Shown: positions 4,142-20,000, counted from the first letter of the stretch. The stretch is 20,000 nucleotides of DNA from an uncultured virus (IMG/VR IMGVR_UViG_3300030098_003452) (IMGVR_UViG_3300030098_003452:47290-67289), one strand, 5' to 3'. Translations and numbers: made by a program. The notes: generated by a model not told the origin, from the letters alone.

Positions 4142-4342
4142 TTAAACTAAAACAGAATTTTTCTGTTTTTGAATTTCAACTCTAATTTCCTGGGCTAAAG
4201 ATTTTATAACTTGCATAGACTTTCTAACTCTTGTCCCCGCTGAGTTGTTACCTTCCACGAATTTTTCAGTATCTGGTACAGCTCTTTCAAATTCCTCACC
4301 CATTTTTTGATATAATTTAATTATATTATTTTCCATATTCAT
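4142..4342 (-). CDS. histone H1-like (Hc1-family, Bacteroidota-type) small DNA-binding protein
   Basis: EKFVEGNNSAGTRVRKSMQ matches the GNxxAGTRxRK signature. Confidence 0.7.
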   Translation of the reverse strand: MNMENNIIKLYQKMGEEFERAVPDTEKFVEGNNSAGTRVRKSMQVIKSLAQEIRVEIQKQKNSVLV

Positions 4343-4345
4343 ATT

Positions 4346-4489
4346 TTATTCTTTAATTGTTTCTTCTACTTTTGGTTCGTCAGTTGTAACTTCTTCTACG
4401 TCCCGAGATTGCCACCAAGCTAATGCAGCGCCAATAATAAAAAGCACAATAATAACTATTTTTTTATTTTCTTTTAATTTTTCTAACAT
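4346..4489 (-). CDS. small single-pass membrane protein (47 aa)
   Basis: Hand-translated MLEKLKENKKIVIIVLFIIGAALAWWQSRDVEEVTTDEPKVEETIKE. Confidence 0.7.
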   Translation of the reverse strand: MLEKLKENKKIVIIVLFIIGAALAWWQSRDVEEVTTDEPKVEETIKE

Positions 4490-4515
4490 TCTAAAATTTT
4501 TCGTTAAACATTAAT

Positions 4516-4914
4516 TTAAAATTTATAAGATAAACCTATCTTAAATTTGCCTTCAGAATCTTCTTCCATAGACATCATGTAACTTGGCTCGACATATAAC
4601 TCGTTCCAAACTTTTAAAGAATAACCAACACCAAACATCATGTTATCGGCTATTTCTTCCATAGGCATTTGTACGATTGCGTAGCATCCACTAAAATAGT
4701 ATCTACCCCACATATCATATTCTTCGCCACTTTTTACAATACCAACAGTCATTTTATCATTAAACATATAACCAACTCCCATGTTATCTGTTATACTCGA
4801 CATTTCCCATTTAGCATCTTCTTCTGGTTGATCTATAGTTGTTACAACCATAAATTGAGCAGAAGCAAACATTGTAGCGAAAGCTAATGCCATTGTTAAA
4901 AACATTTTTTTCAT
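4516..4914 (-). CDS. small outer-membrane beta-barrel protein with signal peptide
   Basis: Sec signal MKKMFLTMALAFATMFASA|Q, alternating beta strands, terminal KIGLSYKF (C-terminal Phe beta-signal). Confidence 0.75.
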   Translation of the reverse strand: MKKMFLTMALAFATMFASAQFMVVTTIDQPEEDAKWEMSSITDNMGVGYMFNDKMTVGIVKSGEEYDMWGRYYFSGCYAIVQMPMEEIADNMMFGVGYSLKVWNELYVEPSYMMSMEEDSEGKFKIGLSYKF

Positions 4915-4935
4915 AATTTTTGTTTTAATTAATAA

Positions 4936-6798
4936 TTAAGTTACTTCACAACTTCCACCCGCGCAAGCTAATTCACCAGATAAATCAGTATTATCCTCTG
5001 TTTCTATTATTTTTGATAAATCAACTTCTTGCAAAGTTTTAGTCATTTCTTCATATTTCCGTTTTATTATGTCCTCGAAAGGAGCCTGTACATAAGTACC
5101 ACCATCATACGGTAAAACGGATAAACCGTTATAATGATCTCTGTTTTCCCACATCCATTCACCAGCTTTTTCCCAATCATTATCTTTTAAAGATATTGTA
5201 GCAGAAACATTATGAGTATTAGATCCAACTCTGTGACCTTCTTTAACCCATTCTTTAGCTACTTTTTTAACTCTTTCTAAAAGATCAAAAGCAGATTCTG
5301 TTCTAACTATAGAACCTTTTGGTGAAGCTTGTGGGATACTAATAATTGCAGTGTCGTGTGGTCTAAAGAAATCATCTTCTAACAATTCTGGATGATGAAT
5401 AGTAAGATAACTATAAATTGCTTCATTTTTACCCACACGTATTCTACGTATATAGTATTTATTGTGCCAAGCATGTATACCCGATGAAGTGCCTAAAACT
5501 AGAGATGTTGTTCCTGCTGGTTTTACAGTTGTACATCTAGCAGCTTTATTAATACCTATAGATTTAGACACGGTTGCATTAGTAATTTTAACATGCTTAG
5601 CAGCTTCTTCCATATTTAATTCAAGAACTTTACCAGAGGCTATTCCTGTCATTGACACTCCTATAAGAGCATCTTTTTCAGTGGTCTCTTGCCAAATTTC
5701 TCTTAAATAATGAAAGTCAGTGTAACCAGCTTGTAATGTTCCTATAAAAGCAGCCGCAGTCACTCTATTGTTTAATTCATCTTGAGTTTCTACGTCTGAA
5801 ACATTTACTTCACATAGGTTACAAAATTGAAACGGACGTAATGCTATTTCACAACAGGGATTAGTCCCCCAATCTTTATCGTTATTTAAATATATTCCTG
5901 GCTCACCAGATCCAGATAATTCTATACGTTTCCATAGATCCATAAAAAAATCTTTAGTGACTTTATGTCTCATTAAAACCGCTGAATTATTTGCTCTACC
6001 TCTTTGTGGGTTTGTTTCCCACCAAGAGCCAGATTTACAAGATATCATTTCTTCATCATACGCGGAAAATAATGATATAAGAGCTGCCCTACGTATACCT
6101 CCAGCGAGGACGGCATCTGCAATATGGCAGATAATATCATGCACTTCAACGCTCGATAAAATTGTTCCATCTTCTTTACTTTCTAATATTCCTTTAATTT
6201 TTACAATACACTCTTTTAATGGTTGTGGTCCAGGTGCTTTTCCCCCAGAGGTCACGAGACGTGCTCCCTTAGGCCTAATATCAGAATAATCAAATTTTAT
6301 CTTAGATGATCTCTTAGAGCCCAAATAAGACTTGATTAAAACTTTTATTGCATCTGACCAACCTTCTATTGAATCTCCTATTACGAACCTTCTTGTTCTT
6401 TTGCTATGAGGCTTTATAACTTCAGGTAGCTTTTTAATATTATGTTGTTGTACAGAATATCCAACTCCACATCCTGATAGTAATAAAAACATTACTTCAG
6501 AAAAAGCATCAATATGGTCAATAGGTAAAAAAGCGCAGTTATAAAGTCTATTAGGTGAAATTTCAATTGGTTTACCTCCGAATTGTAAACTTCTCATAGA
6601 TGGTAAAACTTTTTTCTTATAAACATATCTATAGAATGTTTCTATATCATCTATTAATTCAGGGTATCTACGCTTGTGCATTTCTTTATTACGAGTAACT
6701 AATTCTTCCCAACTTTCTCTTCTTTGAAGTTCTGGGATATATTTAGCATACTTCATATGCACTGTTATATCAGATAGTATTTTATTATTTAAACTCAT
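4936..6798 (-). CDS. nrdJ: class II (adenosylcobalamin-dependent, RTPR-like) ribonucleotide reductase
   Basis: LPSMRSLQFGG, LYNCAF, TNPCCEI, TVKPAGT and C-terminal ACAGGSCEV; no class I beta subunit nearby; likely start MSLNNK at 6798. Confidence 0.9.
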   Translation of the reverse strand: MSLNNKILSDITVHMKYAKYIPELQRRESWEELVTRNKEMHKRRYPELIDDIETFYRYVYKKKVLPSMRSLQFGGKPIEISPNRLYNCAFLPIDHIDAFSEVMFLLLSGCGVGYSVQQHNIKKLPEVIKPHSKRTRRFVIGDSIEGWSDAIKVLIKSYLGSKRSSKIKFDYSDIRPKGARLVTSGGKAPGPQPLKECIVKIKGILESKEDGTILSSVEVHDIICHIADAVLAGGIRRAALISLFSAYDEEMISCKSGSWWETNPQRGRANNSAVLMRHKVTKDFFMDLWKRIELSGSGEPGIYLNNDKDWGTNPCCEIALRPFQFCNLCEVNVSDVETQDELNNRVTAAAFIGTLQAGYTDFHYLREIWQETTEKDALIGVSMTGIASGKVLELNMEEAAKHVKITNATVSKSIGINKAARCTTVKPAGTTSLVLGTSSGIHAWHNKYYIRRIRVGKNEAIYSYLTIHHPELLEDDFFRPHDTAIISIPQASPKGSIVRTESAFDLLERVKKVAKEWVKEGHRVGSNTHNVSATISLKDNDWEKAGEWMWENRDHYNGLSVLPYDGGTYVQAPFEDIIKRKYEEMTKTLQEVDLSKIIETEDNTDLSGELACAGGSCEVT

Positions 6799-17379: not shown

Positions 17380-17647
17380 AGTATAATTCTTTCATTGTTT
17401 CTATAATATGTCTACCAGTCGCGGTATGAAAACCATAATTGTGTGTGTGAAGTGCAGGTATAACTTGATTTTCACAAAGTAATTTAAATAAATCAAACGC
17501 TTTGTTGTGTTCAAATTTAATACAAGCTTCGTTAGCTGCATAAGCTAGCGCATCTGTATCATGTTTACATTCACCATATACAAACTCAAGATATAGTTTT
17601 ATTCTCTCGCTATCTGTTAGTTTCATTCCTTCATCTGTTAATTTCAT
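17360..17647 (-). CDS. hypothetical protein
   Basis: 95-aa ORF; N-terminal MKLTD is duplicated. Confidence 0.7.
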   Translation of the reverse strand: MKLTDEGMKLTDSERIKLYLEFVYGECKHDTDALAYAANEACIKFEHNKAFDLFKLLCENQVIPALHTHNYGFHTATGRHIIETMKELYYEYKNK

Positions 17648-17648
17648 A

Positions 17649-17975
17649 TTATTTTATTTTAAATTTGTTATTAATTTGACTCATTACATGTTCTATAAAA
17701 CCATCGTCTTGTACATTTATAGATTCTAAATATACTTTACCATCGTATTCCATACCAAATTCAACATCACATTCATCTTGAGTTAAATAACCAAGAGCAT
17801 CTTGAATACCTTCGATAATACAAGATTCTAATTTTTCATACATTTCTTTTGTCATTTCTGGTTTGTTTAAATCTTCTAATTCTTTTTGTTTAGCTTTTAA
17901 GTCCATATTTACTTGACCCATTTTCTCTTCGAGACCTTTTATTGTAGCCTCTAACAATTCTTTACTTTCATTCAT
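17649..17975 (-). CDS. hypothetical acidic coiled-coil protein
   Basis: Likely start MNESK (17975), since the longer start lies inside the repeated motif. Confidence 0.7.
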   Translation of the reverse strand: MNESKELLEATIKGLEEKMGQVNMDLKAKQKELEDLNKPEMTKEMYEKLESCIIEGIQDALGYLTQDECDVEFGMEYDGKVYLESINVQDDGFIEHVMSQINNKFKIK

Positions 17976-17998
17976 TTTATTTAATTTTAATTTATTAT

Positions 17999-18030
17999 TA
18001 TTATCCAAATACATTTGTATTTAGTTTGTA
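17999..18030 (-). promoter_or_regulatory. repeated bipartite motif copy 3, putative phage promoter
   Basis: TACAAACTAAATACA-N10-GATAATA. Confidence 0.7.
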
Positions 18031-18032
18031 TT

Positions 18033-18102
18033 GTGGTAGGAGAGGAATCGAACCTCTCTGTATACGTGGAATCTCACCACCTTACTATCCATGTAACTAC
18101 CA
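18033..18102 (-). ncRNA. tRNA-like element 1
   Basis: TGGTAG...GAGAGG-TTCGATT-CCTCTC-CTACCA; internal hairpin GTGG-TGAGATT-CCAC; no canonical D arm. Confidence 0.65.
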
Positions 18103-18113
18103 GACCAATTTTG

Positions 18114-18211
18114 TAGCTTGGAGAGGAATCGAACCTCTCAACTCGTCAGTTAGATTTTCAATTCGCTGCTATTACCAATTTTGGGAACGCGATTGAAAAC
18201 CATCTCAAGCT
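18114..18211 (-). ncRNA. tRNA-like element 2
   Basis: AGCTTG...GAGAGG-TTCGATT-CCTCTC-CAAGCT; interior is a long hairpin TTTTCAATCGC...GCGAATTGAAAA. Confidence 0.65.
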
Positions 18212-18230
18212 TCCAGTATTAGTTAGTTAA

Positions 18231-18349
18231 AGAGTGCGACTCTAGGTTGGCAACATTAGGGTCTTTTCATCCCAAGTATTTCTGCTATCACCTCTATTCT
18301 AATACTTTTCGTGTGAGCCAAAGGCGTACTTAATCTTTGCACTTCCACG
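18231..18349 (-). ncRNA. candidate multi-hairpin structured RNA
   Basis: GC-richer block with no convincing ORF; stems CGTG/CACG + CAAAG/CTTTG, AAGTATT/AATACTT, GGG/CCC and AGAGT/ACTCT. Confidence 0.4.
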
Positions 18350-18360
18350 TGTATAGCATT

Positions 18361-18456
18361 TTATTCGTAGTAAACAAAATACATTTTAAACTTATTTGTC
18401 TCTTTCATTAACTTTCTCTCCTTTATTTTAGGTCCAGTTAACTGGCTTTTGTCCAT
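18361..18456 (-). CDS. possible very small ORF (31 aa)
   Basis: MDKSQLTGPKIKERKLMKETNKFKMYFVYYE; supported only by position and strand. Confidence 0.3.
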   Translation of the reverse strand: MDKSQLTGPKIKERKLMKETNKFKMYFVYYE

Positions 18457-18472
18457 GTATTTTGGGTTTTTA

Positions 18473-18631
18473 CTATTTAACTTTCTCTTTTTCATCGTAT
18501 TCTTTTAAATTTTTATTAAATATATTTCTTCTTATATGGCACTTTATTTGTGACGATATATACATTCCTATTGCTATTCCTAAGAAAACTATTATTACTA
18601 CTAAAGGTATCATCATTATTACTTTTTCCAT
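18473..18631 (-). CDS. small single-pass membrane protein (52 aa)
   Basis: Hand-translated MEKVIMMIPLVVIIVFLGIAIGMYISSQIKCHIRRNIFNKNLKEYDEKEKVK. Confidence 0.7.
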   Translation of the reverse strand: MEKVIMMIPLVVIIVFLGIAIGMYISSQIKCHIRRNIFNKNLKEYDEKEKVK

Positions 18632-18671
18632 ATTTCTTTGTGTTTATGTTTTCTTTTATATTTCTTTTTAC

Positions 18672-18751
18672 TAACAAACACAGAAGAGCTAGGTGGTCTC
18701 ACACCTTGATCGAGATCTACTCGCCTTTTAACTCCTCGTTTATGTTTGTTA
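18672..18751 (-). ncRNA. candidate three-way-junction structured RNA (80 nt)
   Basis: TAACAAACATA/TGTGTTTGTTA and GAGGAGTT/AGCTCTTC stems enclose hairpins CGAG-TAGAT-CTCG and AGGTG-TGAGAC-CACCT; the non-Watson-Crick pairs are G-U on the - strand. Confidence 0.6.
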
Positions 18752-18758
18752 TTTAATT

Positions 18759-18968
18759 TCATTTTAACATTGTTCCATAACCTCTACGTCGAGTCAACTT
18801 AGCTATTATTGCAGCATCAGAAGCTGACATTATCTGTATAGAGTTACCAGTTTTGTGGTTAATAAGAGGTGCACATCCATACATTTCTGTAGTAGAGCAC
18901 TTAACACACGTTTTAAAACCAAGTTTAACTCGTCCGTCAGGTATTATATTTTCACACTTACATTTCAT
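18759..18968 (-). CDS. small Cys4 zinc-finger protein (DksA/TraR C4-like)
   Basis: CKC-ENIIPDGRVKLGFKT-CVKC; likely start MKCKC. Confidence 0.6.
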   Translation of the reverse strand: MKCKCENIIPDGRVKLGFKTCVKCSTTEMYGCAPLINHKTGNSIQIMSASDAAIIAKLTRRRGYGTMLK

Positions 18969-18973
18969 ATTGT

Positions 18974-19005
18974 TATTATCCATTAATAAATGTATTTAAT
19001 TTGTA
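18974..19005 (-). promoter_or_regulatory. repeated bipartite motif copy 4, putative phage promoter
   Basis: TACAAATTAAATACA-N10-GATAATA, 5 nt before ATG 18968. Confidence 0.7.
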
Positions 19006-19307
19006 AAACGATTCTCTAAATATATCCAACCATCTTCATCAACTTCATTATTGTTGATTAATGTTTGTAATTTACCACATTTTACATAATCTTCACATTC
19101 TATAAAGTGTTGTATCATAGATTCTATATCAGATTTTTGTAAATCACCTGTATCTACGTCAACTGGTGGTAGAAAAAATACATTTTTAACTTTATGTTTA
19201 TTTTGTATTTCAATAACCTCACCATATCCTTTACCTTCTATTAACATTAAGTAAGAAGATACCATTCCAACATGAATAAATTTCTCTGTTTGTTCTTGTT
19301 TTGTCAT
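18996..19307 (-). CDS. hypothetical protein with UVR-like motif
   Basis: Likely start MTKQEQ with AAATTATG context; FIECEDYVKCGKLQ. Confidence 0.65.
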   Translation of the reverse strand: MTKQEQTEKFIHVGMVSSYLMLIEGKGYGEVIEIQNKHKVKNVFFLPPVDVDTGDLQKSDIESMIQHFIECEDYVKCGKLQTLINNNEVDEDGWIYLENRFTN

Positions 19308-19318
19308 AATTTCTTGTT

Positions 19319-19411
19319 TTAAAAAGCGAAACAGTCTAGTATCATTATTACATTTTCTATTGTTGGTGAAATCTTTATTAATTTCCAATGTATTTTTTGA
19401 GTATAAGACAT
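19319..19411 (-). CDS. possible very small ORF (30 aa)
   Basis: MSYTQKIHWKLIKISPTIENVIMILDCFAF; AAATCATG start; fills the gap. Confidence 0.4.
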   Translation of the reverse strand: MSYTQKIHWKLIKISPTIENVIMILDCFAF

Positions 19412-19448
19412 GATTTCTAGTTTTTACATTTATTTATATTTTAATTTA

Positions 19449-19524
19449 GTGGTAGGTGAGGACTCGAACCTCACTACTTTCAACTATTTGTATCTTACGT
19501 TTCTAGATTTCAACCGTTCTACCT
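19449..19524 (-). ncRNA. tRNA-like element 3
   Basis: GGTAG...GTGAGG-TTCGAGT-CCTCAC-CTACC(AC); AT-rich interior with no D or anticodon arm. Confidence 0.6.
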
Positions 19525-19552
19525 ATCGTGACACTCTTATTTGAGTGGAATT

Positions 19553-19819
19553 TTAGTTTTCTTCGTGTCGATAACACAAACCACTTTCATTTTTAGTTCT
19601 ATTTTTACAAGATTTGTTCTTTTTAGTAATTCCTTTACATTTTTGTGACACTTTGTCATCTTTTACATACGTTTTGTCATGTAAATAGCACAATTCTGTC
19701 TTAGATTTAGTAATATTTTTACATTGAACACTATCTTTAGTGAGTCCATTACACTGGGTTTGACTCATTCCCATCATTGAAATACTTATCATTCCAATTA
19801 TTAAACTTTTCTTTATCAT
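19553..19819 (-). CDS. signal-peptide protein with two Cys3His repeats (DUF5763-like)
   Basis: MIKKSLIIGMISISMMGMS|Q; repeats CNGLTKDSVQCKNITKSKTELCYLH and CKGITKKNKSCKNRTKNESGLCYRH. Confidence 0.7.
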   Translation of the reverse strand: MIKKSLIIGMISISMMGMSQTQCNGLTKDSVQCKNITKSKTELCYLHDKTYVKDDKVSQKCKGITKKNKSCKNRTKNESGLCYRHEEN

Positions 19820-19830
19820 AATTTTAAATT

Positions 19831-19998
19831 TTAATCTAAATTTGGTGTCATACCATTTTGTTTATCTATTTCTATACATTCTTTGATCGCTTTACCAAGT
19901 AAATCTACCTCACGTTTCACTTCGTTGTCCCATATTTCTTGAGCACTTTGTTCTAACTCTTTAATATCTTCTTCATCGAAGTGAGTATAATAACCTAA
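19831..19998 (-). CDS. 5'-truncated hypothetical acidic protein
   Basis: Open frame from the window edge: LGYYTHFDEEDIKELEQSAQEIWDNEVKREVDLLGKAIKECIEIDKQNGMTPNLD*. Confidence 0.6.
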   Translation of the reverse strand, partial: LGYYTHFDEEDIKELEQSAQEIWDNEVKREVDLLGKAIKECIEIDKQNGMTPNLD

Positions 19999-20000
19999 AT

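What the first reader, a model, noticed from the sequence alone, without database searches (positions are those of the whole stretch)
18033..19524. Family of three tRNA-mimic elements: conserved 6+6 bp acceptor/T stack with unrelated interiors
Seen: three intergenic - strand elements (18034-18102, 18115-18211, 19451-19523) share one architecture: 5' strand, variable interior, 6-bp stem, T-loop (TTCGATT or TTCGAGT), 6-bp stem, then a 3' strand pairing with the 5' strand. Pairing survives sequence change: closing stems are TGGTAG/CTACCA, AGCTTG/CAAGCT and GGTAG/CTACC; T stems are GAGAGG/CCTCTC and GTGAGG/CCTCAC. The interiors are unrelated, differ in length and lack proper D and anticodon arms. 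Known: tRNAs have a 7+5 stack, and this ~12-bp top half plus T-loop is what RNase P, RNase Z, CCA-adding enzyme and EF-Tu recognise; tmRNA, bacterial Y RNAs and mascRNA mimic it. Inference: these are non-decoding tRNA mimics. They could be host-RNase processing signals that cut the early transcript and release small RNAs with different cargo domains, or decoys for tRNA-targeting defences.
Basis: partly seen in the sequence, partly recalled or inferred. Interest (0 to 1): 0.85.

Follow-up and report, generated by a model that had tools for sequence, protein, structure and literature searches.

The report
Anticodon-less tRNA look-alikes in marine phage
A marine phage that has no working tRNA genes keeps three conserved tRNA-shaped RNA elements that cannot read codons, and one belongs to a large, apparently undescribed family in ocean viruses that probably uses the host's tRNA-trimming enzymes.

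Summary
Three minus-strand intergenic elements (A 18033-18102, B 18113-18213, C 19449-19524) each have a canonical T-loop, a 6-bp T stem and a closing acceptor-like stem. ARAGORN and Rfam call none of them.

They are tRNA-derived. In related contigs a true tRNA-Asp sits where A lies, and other relatives carry tRNA-Arg or tRNA-Tyr in the same region. A keeps the first 12 nt of that tRNA-Asp.

B belongs to a family of at least 95 distinct sequences from marine viral and metagenome contigs.
- 97% of top-half base-pair cells are paired, and 6 of 13 pairs show compensatory changes.
- CUGACGAG is invariant and C73 nearly so (94 of 95).
- The inner arm is hypervariable, 9-90 nt.

A is 94-99% identical between phages whose flanks are 45-81% identical.

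So these are selected, non-decoding tRNA-like RNAs, not decaying pseudogenes. What they do is not shown. My best guess (about 45%) is that host RNase P and tRNA 3'-end enzymes excise them and thereby cut the early polycistronic transcript. A decoy or scaffold role is the main rival.

No expression ends could be mapped. This is a new variant of a known kind.

The parts
18113..18213 (-). Element B, whole: G-1 (18213), A1 (18212) to A72 (18114), C73 (18113). A tRNA-like RNA without a D arm.
   Evidence: MFE -32.2 kcal/mol, z -4.01. The family alignments are A4 and A6.
18206..18212 (-). B acceptor 5' strand AAGCTTG. It pairs with 18114-18120 (CAAGCTA). Pair 1:72 is A.A.
   Evidence: pairs 2-7 are paired in all 92 sequences that have letters there, and pairs 2-5 show changes on both sides; when 1:72 is A.A, N-1 is G in 30 of 33, which pairs with C73.
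18200..18205 (-). B junction J1, AGATGG. A8 and G9 pair with T18152 and C18153. UGG (18202-18200) is the likely elbow GG.
   Evidence: 8:-13 is paired in 89 of 89. 9:-14 is paired in 96% (GC 42, AU 39, GU 4; MI 0.77). G13 is invariant (89 of 89) and G12 is present in 85 of 89.
18154..18199 (-). B variable inner hairpin (in our copy GGTTTTCAAT.../...ATTGAAAATC).
   Evidence: -15.2 kcal/mol, z -4.2 for our copy. Family mean z is -1.46, and 4 of 10 reach p<0.05; interiors run 9-90 nt, with 88 distinct in 95 sequences.
18140..18153 (-). B junction J2: CT (pairs with A8 and G9), then AA, then the invariant CTGACGAG (18149-18142), then TT.
   Evidence: CTGACGAG is invariant in 89 of 89; in ordinary tRNAs the same string lies just upstream of the T stem, which I read as the 3' side of the anticodon stem plus the variable loop.
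18121..18139 (-). B T arm: GAGAGG, TTCGATT, CCTCTC.
   Evidence: 100% of cells are paired, and pair 128:144 alternates AU (49) with GC (45).
18033..18102 (-). Element A: acceptor TGGTAG/CTACCA, a degenerate D-like region, the hairpin GTGG-UGAGAUU-CCAC, T arm 18040-18058, C73 at 18033.
   Evidence: the body is 94-99% identical in L004, L005 and L074, against 58-81% for the leader, 45-61% for the trailer and 50-65% for upstream sequence.
18095..18106 (-). GGTCTGGTAGTT. This matches the first 12 nt of the canonical tRNA-Asp(GTC) that follows B in related contigs. The chimera junction with the A-type body lies at GGTAGTT.
   Evidence: (alignment A7).
19449..19524 (-). Element C: A1 (19524), GGTAG/CTACC, T arm 19456-19474, A72 (19450), C73 (19449).
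   Evidence: the L077 copy is 96% identical. C is homologous to the E1-type elements of L007, L008, L009 and L011, with GGTAG/CTACC changing to AGTAG/CTACT.
19532..19554 (-). Leader of C: AAAATTCC plus the hairpin CACTC-AAATAA-GAGTG, directly after the stop codon of the 88-aa ORF (19553-19555).
   Evidence: (A5): the same leader precedes A in L004, L005 and L074 and C in L077. The stems covary (CACTC/GAGTG, CGCTC/GAGCG, CGCT/AGCG, CATACC/GGTATG).
18214..18362 (-). Non-coding stretch upstream of B. It may be part of the same transcript, but no structure is shown.
   Evidence: z -0.77; its last ~45 nt (AATGTTGCCAACCT...TAACTAACTAATACTGG) recur upstream of B in L222, L231, L241, L303 and L314.

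Best explanation
The three elements are tRNA-derived RNAs on the gene strand that no longer decode. They keep only the part of a tRNA that the maturation machinery reads:
- a 12-13-bp acceptor/T coaxial stack;
- a canonical T loop;
- a GG that can close the elbow;
- a discriminator C73;
- no encoded CCA.

They lie in the early/replication gene block of a lytic marine phage of the Flavobacterium/Cellulophaga phage group. In relatives this spot is a small tRNA-gene island.

Proposed mechanism, all of it inferred:
1. The elements are co-transcribed with the flanking small early genes.
2. Host RNase P cuts at their 5' side.
3. The host tRNA 3'-end pathway (an endonuclease or exonucleases, then the CCA-adding enzyme) trims their 3' side.
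4. This excises stable small RNAs and at the same time cuts the polycistronic transcript. The downstream mRNA is left with a short A/U-rich leader.

This is 'tRNA punctuation', as at plant-mitochondrial t-elements.

What is shown: the elements exist, they are tRNA-derived, they are not decoders, and they are under selection for the top-half fold on this strand.

What is inferred: transcription, cleavage by RNase P and 3' enzymes, and any effect on neighbouring mRNAs.
For: Not decoders:
- ARAGORN finds 0 and Rfam finds 0.
- A's loop changes between close relatives.
- B's arm runs 9-90 nt.

Derived from tRNA, in a tRNA island:
- A true tRNA-Asp(GTC) follows B on the same strand in 8 of 95 B contexts, 6 of them within 10 nt. 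That is the position of A.
- A keeps that tRNA's first 12 nt.
- tRNA-Arg(TCT) lies in the same region in 5 of 10 related loci.
- B's invariant CTGACGAG(G/T)T also occurs just upstream of the T stem in ordinary tRNAs.

Selection at the RNA level:
- In B (94 distinct rows), 97.0% of 1208 cells are paired, against 41-58% when the partner is slid.
- 6 of 13 pairs change on both sides (76 cells), and 0 of 500 shuffles reach the observed covariation.
- G.U pairs (UG 12, GU 2 and others) fit only this strand.
- A further covarying 2-bp helix, 8-9 with -13/-14, was found.
- A's body is 94-99% identical, while its leader is 58-81%, its trailer 45-61% and neighbouring ORFs 55-81%.
- C and the E1 elements show GGTAG/CTACC changing to AGTAG/CTACT.

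Fit to a processing role:
- All elements are intergenic and on the gene strand.
- No sigma-70-type promoter or intrinsic terminator of their own was found on the - strand next to them. The scan does not cover Bacteroidota promoters.
- In many relatives the next ATG lies about 15-20 nt after C73, in the form C-TAAAATTAAATAATATG.
- B is tandem with a tRNA that must itself be released by RNase P.
- tRNA-like elements with the same GGTTCRANYCC motif direct RNase P and RNase Z cuts at mRNA ends in plant mitochondria (PMC1920247, passages read).
- A bacterial tRNA-like Y RNA is cut by RNase P and receives CCA (PMC4201824, passages read).

Presence in an RNA library: a 60-nt contig of a metatranscriptome run lies on 18033-18092. 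This shows presence only, and DNA can be present in such a library.
Against: - No transcript ends, no CCA tails and no cleavage were observed. The only RNA data are contigs, which cannot show ends or levels.
- The acceptor stems of A and C are short (5-6 bp), with mismatches at 1:72 and 7:66. They may be poor RNase P substrates.
- Punctuation alone does not explain why CUGACGAG, UGG and C73 are invariant in B. RNase P does not need them, so they point to a further, specific partner.
- The conserved leader hairpin and the conserved structured domain upstream of B in relatives are also unexplained by this model.
- High identity of A at three different genomic positions could partly reflect recent transfer, not purifying selection.
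Confidence: 0.45

Rival explanations
1. Trans-acting tRNA mimic. The excised RNAs, B above all, are the product that matters. In this reading a tRNA top half serves as a stable scaffold, and its invariant core (UGG, CUGACGAG, C73) binds a host or phage factor. Candidates include a tRNA-targeting defence enzyme, a tRNA-modifying or CCA-adding enzyme, or a translation factor. The RNA would then act as a decoy, sponge or regulator, and the variable arm would be either tolerated or under an arms race.
For: - Single-stranded motifs that RNase P does not require are invariant: CTGACGAG in 89 of 89, G13 in 89 of 89 and C73 in 94 of 95.
- The arm is hypervariable, with 88 distinct interiors in 95 sequences.
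- Some copies of the arm covary as a hairpin. L015 and L016 differ by G-C to A-U and by G.U changes (sequences).
- Earlier notes of this scan describe other anticodon-less phage tRNA mimics. These are unchecked leads.
Against: - No partner gene is conserved next to B. The downstream ORFs differ between contigs.
- PHROGs found no tRNA-related enzyme, Ro60/Rsr or RNA ligase among the 81 of 83 ORFs scanned.
- The arm can be nearly absent (9-10 nt), so it is not an obligatory cargo.
- No anticodon loop is present to decoy anticodon nucleases.
Confidence: 0.22
2. Relics. The elements are remains of phage tRNA genes that lost their function. Their T arms would be kept alike by gene conversion between neighbouring copies, and they would persist only because they are short.
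For: - Our phage has lost every canonical tRNA, while relatives keep Asp, Tyr or Arg.
- A is a recombinant between a tRNA-Asp 5' end and another element.
- A and B share an identical 20-nt T arm.
- Copy number and position vary between phages.
- E1-type copies have mismatches inside the stack.
Against: - Compensatory changes keep the stems.
- B is conserved beside intact tRNAs in many lineages.
- A's whole body, not only its T arm, is 94-99% identical where leader, trailer and genes are 45-81%.
- A-type elements rebuilt a closing stem (GGTAG/CTACC) after losing the original acceptor 5' strand.
Confidence: 0.12
3. A role at the DNA level. The conserved tRNA-like segments would serve as recombination linkers between exchangeable early-gene cassettes, or as att-like or target sites, and would not act as RNAs.
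For: - A sits at three different positions relative to homologous ORFs.
- An assembled contig (L231) has B followed directly by the sequence that follows A in our phage, so A is absent there.
- Contig joints in metagenome runs fall at element borders. Examples are 18030>18111/18113, 18056>19509, 18086>19541, 18220>19446, and replacements of B's interior starting at 18152-18157.
- These joints are weak. They were laid at 88% likeness, and the shorter sides are only 21-43 letters.
Against: - No integrase or recombinase of that kind was found among the 81 of 83 ORFs scanned. The genome does have Erf-like and exonuclease genes.
- Recombination at repeats is an expected side effect and needs no selection.
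- G.U-containing covariation fits an RNA on this strand, not DNA.
Confidence: 0.1
4. They are unusual but working decoder tRNAs.
For: - A can be drawn as a cloverleaf.
- ARAGORN of 95 B elements class II tRNAs, L198 as Leu(gag) and L225 as Ser(tga).
Against: - There is no Rfam tRNA hit even at E<=10.
- A's loop lacks U33 and a purine at 37, and its middle letters differ between close relatives.
- B's arm has no conserved loop or length.
Confidence: 0.03

Closest known systems
Plant-mitochondrial t-elements (tRNA-like elements at mRNA ends; PMC1920247, passages read)
   Same: Both are non-canonical tRNA-like folds with a perfectly kept T arm (GGTTCRANYCC). Both are embedded in transcripts beside protein genes and have no decoding role. 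In plants, RNase P and RNase Z cut at them and C/CCA is added.
   Different: The t-elements belong to an organelle, not a phage, and there is no sequence homology. Cleavage is shown for t-elements and not here. B has extra invariant motifs (CUGACGAG, UGG, C73) and a variable arm that t-elements are not reported to have.
Bacterial Y RNA YrlA (tRNA-like domain; PMC4201824, passages read)
   Same: Both are non-decoding RNAs that mimic the T arm, D-loop contact and acceptor stem. The M. smegmatis RNA is cut by RNase P and receives CCA, and the family also occurs in phages.
   Different: In YrlA the RNA ends lie in the Ro60-binding stem, and the family is encoded next to Ro60/Rsr. Here the ends lie in the acceptor stem, there is no Rfam hit, and no Rsr-like gene was found among the ORFs scanned.
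Phage T4 small RNAs RNAC and RNAD from the tRNA region (PMC3014915 and PMC9697503, passages read)
   Same: They are phage-encoded small stable RNAs transcribed from the phage tRNA gene region, and their function is still unknown.
   Different: Their structure was not compared here. That they have tRNA-like ends is only my recollection. The phage group and host are different.
Allo-tRNAs with 8/4 or 9/3 stacks (PMC5389517, abstract seen in the listing)
   Same: The 12-bp acceptor/T stack is partitioned in a way other than 7/5.
   Different: Allo-tRNAs keep an anticodon arm and decode. Here the partition is 6/6 (A, C) or 7/6 (B), and there is no anticodon.
tmRNA tRNA-like domain
   Same: It has an acceptor stem plus T arm, with a D-loop analogue in place of a D arm.
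   Different: ARAGORN's tmRNA search finds nothing. Pair 3:70 is G-C or A-U, never G.U. No tag reading frame or pseudoknots were seen, and the size is 52-135 nt.

Membership tests
Canonical tRNA (Rfam RF00005 / ARAGORN) | Scores as a tRNA with the covariance model or with ARAGORN | tested here: not met
   ARAGORN finds 0 in the window and the genome. Rfam gives nothing at gathering score or at E<=10. True tRNAs in relatives score 66-74 bits.
Canonical tRNA (Rfam RF00005 / ARAGORN) | Anticodon arm with a 7-nt loop, U33, a purine at 37 and a conserved anticodon | tested here: not met
   A's loop is UGAGAUU or UGAAAUU. B's arm is 9-90 nt with no conserved loop. No such arm was recognised in C, whose fold shows none.
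Canonical tRNA (Rfam RF00005 / ARAGORN) | T arm with a TTCRANY loop, plus an acceptor stem closing the molecule | tested here: met
Canonical tRNA (Rfam RF00005 / ARAGORN) | 7/5 partition of the acceptor/T stack | tested here: not met
   The partition is 6/6 in A and C and 7/6 in most B copies. Position 7:66 is mismatched, and C66 pairs with the base before the T stem.
tmRNA | tRNA-Ala-like acceptor with G3.U70, a tag ORF and pseudoknots | tested here: not met
   ARAGORN -m finds none. Rfam finds none. Pair 3:70 is GC in 87 and AU in 5.
YrlA / bacterial Y RNA | Matches the Rfam model, has a Ro60-binding stem formed by the RNA ends, and has an rsr gene nearby | tested here: not met
   No Rfam hit. 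No Ro60/Rsr-like hit among the 81 of 83 ORFs scanned.
t-element-like processing signal (functional class) | Conserved GGTTCRANYCC T arm within a non-canonical tRNA-like fold, beside protein genes | tested here: met
   Intergenic position on the gene strand is shown.
t-element-like processing signal (functional class) | Transcript ends coincide with the element's ends, with cleavage by RNase P and the 3' enzyme and non-templated C/CCA | not testable with these tools
   Only contigs could be laid.
Hammerhead ribozyme (considered because of CUGACGA) | CUGANGA plus GAAA cores, three helices and a cleavage-site C17 | tested here: not met
   Position 9 is G in 50 of 89, so the GAA core is broken. 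The minimal forms have 9-10 nt where two helices would be needed. There is no Rfam hit.
tRNA 3'-half att-site copy of an integrating element | A tRNA 3' fragment without a matching 5' strand, beside an integrase | tested here: not met
   The 5' strand is present and covaries. No integrase was found in the ORFs scanned.

The most novel reading that the evidence does not exclude
B-type elements, and their paralogues A and C, would be a new and widespread class of phage 'tRNA-scaffold' RNAs. Host tRNA-maturation enzymes would excise them and add CCA. Their invariant single-stranded core (UGG, CUGACGAG, C73 and the G-1:C73 / 1:72-mismatch end) would capture a specific host factor, for example a defence enzyme that attacks tRNA acceptor ends or an enzyme of tRNA maturation. 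The hypervariable arm would evolve in an arms race or carry strain-specific target recognition.
Probability: 0.15. Interest if true: 0.85.

Novelty: new variant of a known kind. Interest (0 to 1): 0.62.

Why it matters
Phage tRNA genes are usually read as codon-usage or anti-defence tools. Here a lytic marine phage lineage keeps tRNA-shaped RNAs that cannot decode. One of them is a family of at least 95 distinct sequences with strong covariation. It has no Rfam model, and I found no counterpart in 50,697 deposited phage genomes at blastn sensitivity.

If the elements are RNase P and 3'-end processing signals, bacterial viruses would be using mitochondrion-like 'tRNA punctuation' to organise early transcripts in hosts (Bacteroidota) whose mRNA processing is poorly known. 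If they are decoys or scaffolds, the invariant CUGACGAG/UGG/C73 core marks a binding partner that is not yet known.

Either way the family gives a ready alignment for a new covariance model. It also offers a compact natural scaffold that tolerates a 9-90-nt insert.

Tried and rejected
- Hammerhead reading of CUGACGA plus GAAA. Rejected: G9 occurs in 50 of 89, the minimal forms lack helices I and III, and there is no Rfam hit.
- tmRNA or mini-tmRNA. Rejected.
- att-site copy. Rejected: the 5' strand covaries and no integrase was found.
- The leader hairpin as an N4-type virion-RNA-polymerase promoter. The 3522-aa protein matched only LPD14 and DUF5763, both below Pfam's cut-off, and gave no PHROG hit. 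I dropped the idea.
- A complement to CTGACGAG nearby. There are 4 matches with up to 1 mismatch against 3.7 expected, and none lies on the element strand.
- Structure in the 150 nt upstream of B in our phage. z is -0.77, and no homologue was found among the loci held at that point. Short homologues appeared later in metagenome contigs.
- Expression from public runs. One RNA run (X20) held only a 0.05 share of the words, and all runs were contigs. Depth cannot rank regions, ends cannot be seen, and parts without cover say nothing.
- Joints at element borders. They were laid at 88% likeness with short sides, so they are weak.
- B-type in cultured relatives. R1 gave only one E=0.13 match, inside a coding region of an elemo phage, among 5 records. 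blastn against 50,697 phage records gave only T-arm-length matches to ordinary tRNAs.
- blastn of 17600-20000 against phages: no match.
- Comparison with host tRNAs: not done.
- My generic T-loop-plus-acceptor scanner has a background of about 4 hits per shuffled genome, so it was not used as evidence.
- Four literature searches listed no paper describing such elements in flavobacterial or marine phages. That is not proof that none exists.
Full report
**What is in the window.**
- A: TGGTAG (18102-18097) closes with CTACCA (18039-18034). The 6-bp T stem is GAGAGG/CCTCTC and the T loop is TTCGATT.
- B: AGCTTG (18211-18206) closes with CAAGCT (18120-18115). Its T arm is identical to A's over 20 nt.
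- C: GGTAG (19523-19519) closes with CTACC (19455-19451). Its T arm is GTGAGG-TTCGAGT-CCTCAC.
- All three are followed by C at the discriminator position, and none encodes CCA.

The standard detectors do not call them.
- ARAGORN reports no tRNA or tmRNA in the window or in the whole 67,289-bp virus record of which the window is the last 20 kb.
- Rfam gives nothing at gathering score. At E<=10 over 17900-19700 it gives no tRNA, tmRNA or Y RNA hit.

How much is beyond chance within the window:
- The 11-mer GGTTCGANTCC occurs three times in the genome, only in these elements, against 0.03 expected.
- The closing stems alone are not compelling. The chance of a partner within 110 nt is 0.069, 0.095 and 0.13.
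- MFE folds include the acceptor and T stems in all three, with z-scores of -1.64, -4.01 and -1.21.

**What phage this is.**
The genome has about 30% GC. It encodes a large terminase, a portal protein, virion proteins, GroEL/GroES, a holin and an endolysin on the + strand. The window carries a - strand block with these genes:
- ribonucleotide reductase and thymidylate synthase;
- primase-helicase;
- an Erf-like protein and an exonuclease;
- a sigma-like protein and DenV;
- DNA ligase;
- then small ORFs of unknown function.

In these scans (81 of 83 ORFs of 50 aa or more) I saw no integrase, reverse transcriptase, Ro60, RNA ligase or tRNA enzyme.

Terminase identity places the phage as follows:
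- 64% to an uncultured podovirus (MW202828);
- 46% to Flavobacterium elemo phages;
- 38-39% to Cellulophaga phages.

Public runs that hold the stretch are marine metagenomes.

**Homologues: element B.**
The script sorted them as follows:
- 112 complete elements, of which 95 are distinct;
- 13 truncated by contig ends;
- 2 with no 6-bp partner;
- 4 loci with no regex match.

On the 95-sequence alignment A6, the 13 top-half pairs gave these counts:
- They are paired in 97.0% of 1208 cells, against 41-58% with the partner slid by 1-3 columns.
- 6 pairs show changes on both sides (76 cells).
- 0 of 500 shuffles reach the observed covariation score.
- Acceptor pairs 2-7 are paired in every sequence that has letters there. 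Alternative types include AU/UA/GC, GC/AU, CG/UA/AU and UA/AU.
- U.G and G.U pairs fit only the - strand.
- Pair 1:72 is unpaired in 36 of 92.

When 1:72 is A.A (33 sequences), the base before it is G in 30. That G pairs with the near-invariant C73, which is C in 94 of 95.

A scan anchored at both ends of the interior found a further 2-bp helix. A8 pairs with U(-13) in 89 of 89. R9 pairs with Y(-14) in 96% (GC 42, AU 39, GU 4). In our copy these are A18205-T18152 and G18204-C18153.

The consensus layout of B is therefore:
1. acceptor stem (7 bp);
2. A-R;
3. M-U-G-G;
4. variable hairpin;
5. Y-U;
6. R-M;
7. CUGACGAG;
8. K-U;
9. 6-bp T stem, T loop, T stem;
10. acceptor 3' strand;
11. C73.

CUGACGAG is invariant (89 of 89). 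The interior is 9-90 nt (median 47), with 88 distinct versions. It tends to fold (mean z -1.46; 4 of 10 tested reach p<0.05), but it can be nearly absent.

The string CTGACGAGNT-NNNNGGTTCGA also occurs in ordinary tRNAs, such as Paenibacillus tRNA-Tyr and Anaerolineae tRNA-Ala. There it lies immediately upstream of the T stem, which I take to be the 3' side of the anticodon stem plus the variable loop. So B looks like a tRNA that kept positions 38-73, the 5' acceptor strand and a GG. Its D arm and the 5' half of its anticodon arm were replaced.

**Homologues: element A.**
A recurs in three IMG/VR contigs (L004, L005, L074). Identities between the copies are:

| Part | Identity |
|---|---|
| 69-nt body | 94-99% |
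| 40-nt leader | 58-81% |
| 40-nt trailer | 45-61% |
| Upstream 200 nt | 50-65% |
| Neighbouring ORFs | 55-81% |

A lies at three different places relative to homologous ORFs.

In 8 of 95 B contexts a canonical tRNA-Asp(GTC) follows B on the same strand. In 6 of these it starts within 10 nt, which is where A lies in our phage. Alignment A7 shows that the spacer and the first 12 nt, GGTCTGGTAGTT (18106-18095), are those of that tRNA-Asp. From GGTAGTT onward, our sequence switches to the A-type body.

The A-type body itself resembles the tRNA-Asp D region twice over and lacks the anticodon arm. Its closing stem uses GGTAG, which corresponds to tRNA positions 6-10, against a new 3' strand CTACC. 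A is thus a recombinant, re-closed tRNA derivative.

**Homologues: element C.**
C has a 96% identical copy in L077 in the same gene context. It is homologous to the 'E1' elements of L007, L008, L009 and L011. Those share GGTAGAAMGG at the 5' end and GTTCGAGTCC...CTACCAC at the 3' end, but have other interiors. A compensatory change, GGTAG/CTACC to AGTAG/CTACT, is seen.

C in our phage and L077, and A in L004, L005 and L074, share a leader. It consists of AAAATTCC, a hairpin whose stem covaries (CACTC/GAGTG, CGCTC/GAGCG, CGCT/AGCG, CATACC/GGTATG), then TCNCRATA.

**The locus as a whole.**
In five related genomes every GTTCGANYC motif lies on the gene strand within one region of a few kb. The reversed-pattern control shows that the motif count alone is not unusual; it is the clustering that stands out. 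Five of ten related loci also hold a true tRNA-Arg(TCT) there. The locus is therefore a small phage tRNA island in which decoders and non-decoding derivatives are mixed. Our phage retains only the derivatives.

The elements also mark break points between gene cassettes.
- L231 has B followed directly by the sequence that follows A in our phage.
- Contig joints in metagenome runs fall at element borders and at the J2 edge of B's arm. This evidence is weak, because the reads were laid at 88% likeness and the shorter sides are short.

**Interpretation.**
Several points argue against neutral decay and for an RNA folded as a tRNA top half with an elbow:
- the covariation;
- the strand-specific G.U pairs;
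- the conservation of whole bodies against diverged flanks;
- the rebuilding of a closing stem in A-type elements.

That top half is what RNase P, the 3'-end enzymes and the CCA-adding enzyme recognise. This is established knowledge; see the elbow review PMC4810234, of which I saw only the abstract in the listing.

Four further features are what one expects of co-transcribed processing modules:
- The elements are intergenic and on the gene strand.
- They are often about 15-20 nt upstream of the next ATG.
- They can be tandem with real tRNAs.
- They have no recognisable sigma-70-type promoter or intrinsic terminator of their own beside them on the - strand. That scan does not cover Bacteroidota promoters.

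The closest precedent is the plant-mitochondrial t-element (PMC1920247, passages). [quoted passage not shown] I therefore favour 'tRNA punctuation plus release of a stable tRNA-like RNA', at about 45%.

Punctuation does not explain B's invariant CUGACGAG, UGG, C73 and its G-1:C73 / 1:72-mismatch end. These suggest a specific partner and keep a decoy or scaffold role alive, at about 22%. Relics (12%), a purely DNA-level role (10%) and true decoding (3%) are less likely, for the reasons given under the rivals.

**Limits.**
- No transcript ends or levels could be read. The one RNA run is held as contigs. A 60-nt contig on 18033-18092 shows presence only.
- Host tRNAs could not be compared.
- B-type elements were not found in five cultured relatives with model R1, nor in 50,697 phage records by blastn.
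- Four literature searches listed no description of them.
- T4's RNAC and RNAD are small RNAs of unknown role from a phage tRNA region (PMC3014915 and PMC9697503, passages). They may be a distant analogue, but I did not compare structures.

Noticed in passing
L007:4275-4448, L008:4125-4279, L009:4325-4506, L011:3985-4146 (upstream of B in relatives): A conserved structured domain of about 150-200 nt lies directly upstream of B. Its motifs are GTGAACTAGGTGGT, AATGTAGGATAAAGCG and ACCACACCTACGGTTCACAA. A hairpin in it covaries: GTAGG/CCTAC, GGCAGG/CCTGCC and GTGAG/CTCAC. Both motifs (GGATAAAG and CCACWCCT) are present upstream of B in 39 of 88 contexts with at least 200 nt held. There is no Rfam hit. 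Our phage lacks this version.
   Followed up: partly
window 19532-19554 (- strand); also L004:7096-7125, L005:3918-3948, L074 and L077: A conserved leader, AAAATTCC plus a covarying hairpin, lies just upstream of A- and C-type elements. In L004 and L005 the upstream ORF's stop codon lies in the hairpin loop. Read on the + strand, the hairpin followed by GGAATTTT looks like an intrinsic terminator. Its function is unknown.
   Followed up: partly
L004:7201-7395: A 195-nt element has a perfect 7+5 tRNA top half (GCCCAAG/CTTGGGC, T arm GGTGG-TTCGAAT-CCACC) and an interior of about 160 nt. It lies directly after the A copy. ARAGORN and Rfam do not call it.
   Followed up: no
MW202828.1 about 520-735 (L044): The closest deposited relative, a freshwater-spring podovirus, has two tandem non-canonical tRNA-like elements. 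One has a good D arm and a long stem in place of the anticodon arm. They are followed by a strong intrinsic terminator. ARAGORN calls neither.
   Followed up: partly
window 18013-18032 (- strand) and downstream of B or A in many contigs: A conserved motif, CAAT(T)ACAAACTAAATAC, then a small variable hairpin, then GGATAATA, follows the tRNA-like elements before the next gene. In our phage the hairpin is CAAATAC-AAAT-GTATTTG.
   Followed up: no
L006:1589-1630: A minimal 42-nt element has only a 6-bp acceptor, 13 nt that include ATGG, and a 5-bp T arm. It suggests that the top half plus GG is the irreducible unit.
   Followed up: no
G000:C1:32719-43287 and 4148-5960: The phage encodes a 3522-aa protein whose only Pfam matches, LPD14 and DUF5763, fall below the curated cut-off, plus GroEL and GroES homologues.
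   Followed up: no
window 18759-18983 (- strand): A 74-aa Cys-rich ORF has the highest contig depth in the RNA run, up to about 1950 in bin 18806-18872. Contig depths cannot rank genes and may include other organisms.
   Followed up: no
L198:391-485, L225:391-467: ARAGORN of 95 B elements class II tRNAs, Leu(gag) and Ser(tga). These are most likely chance fits of the variable arm.
   Followed up: no
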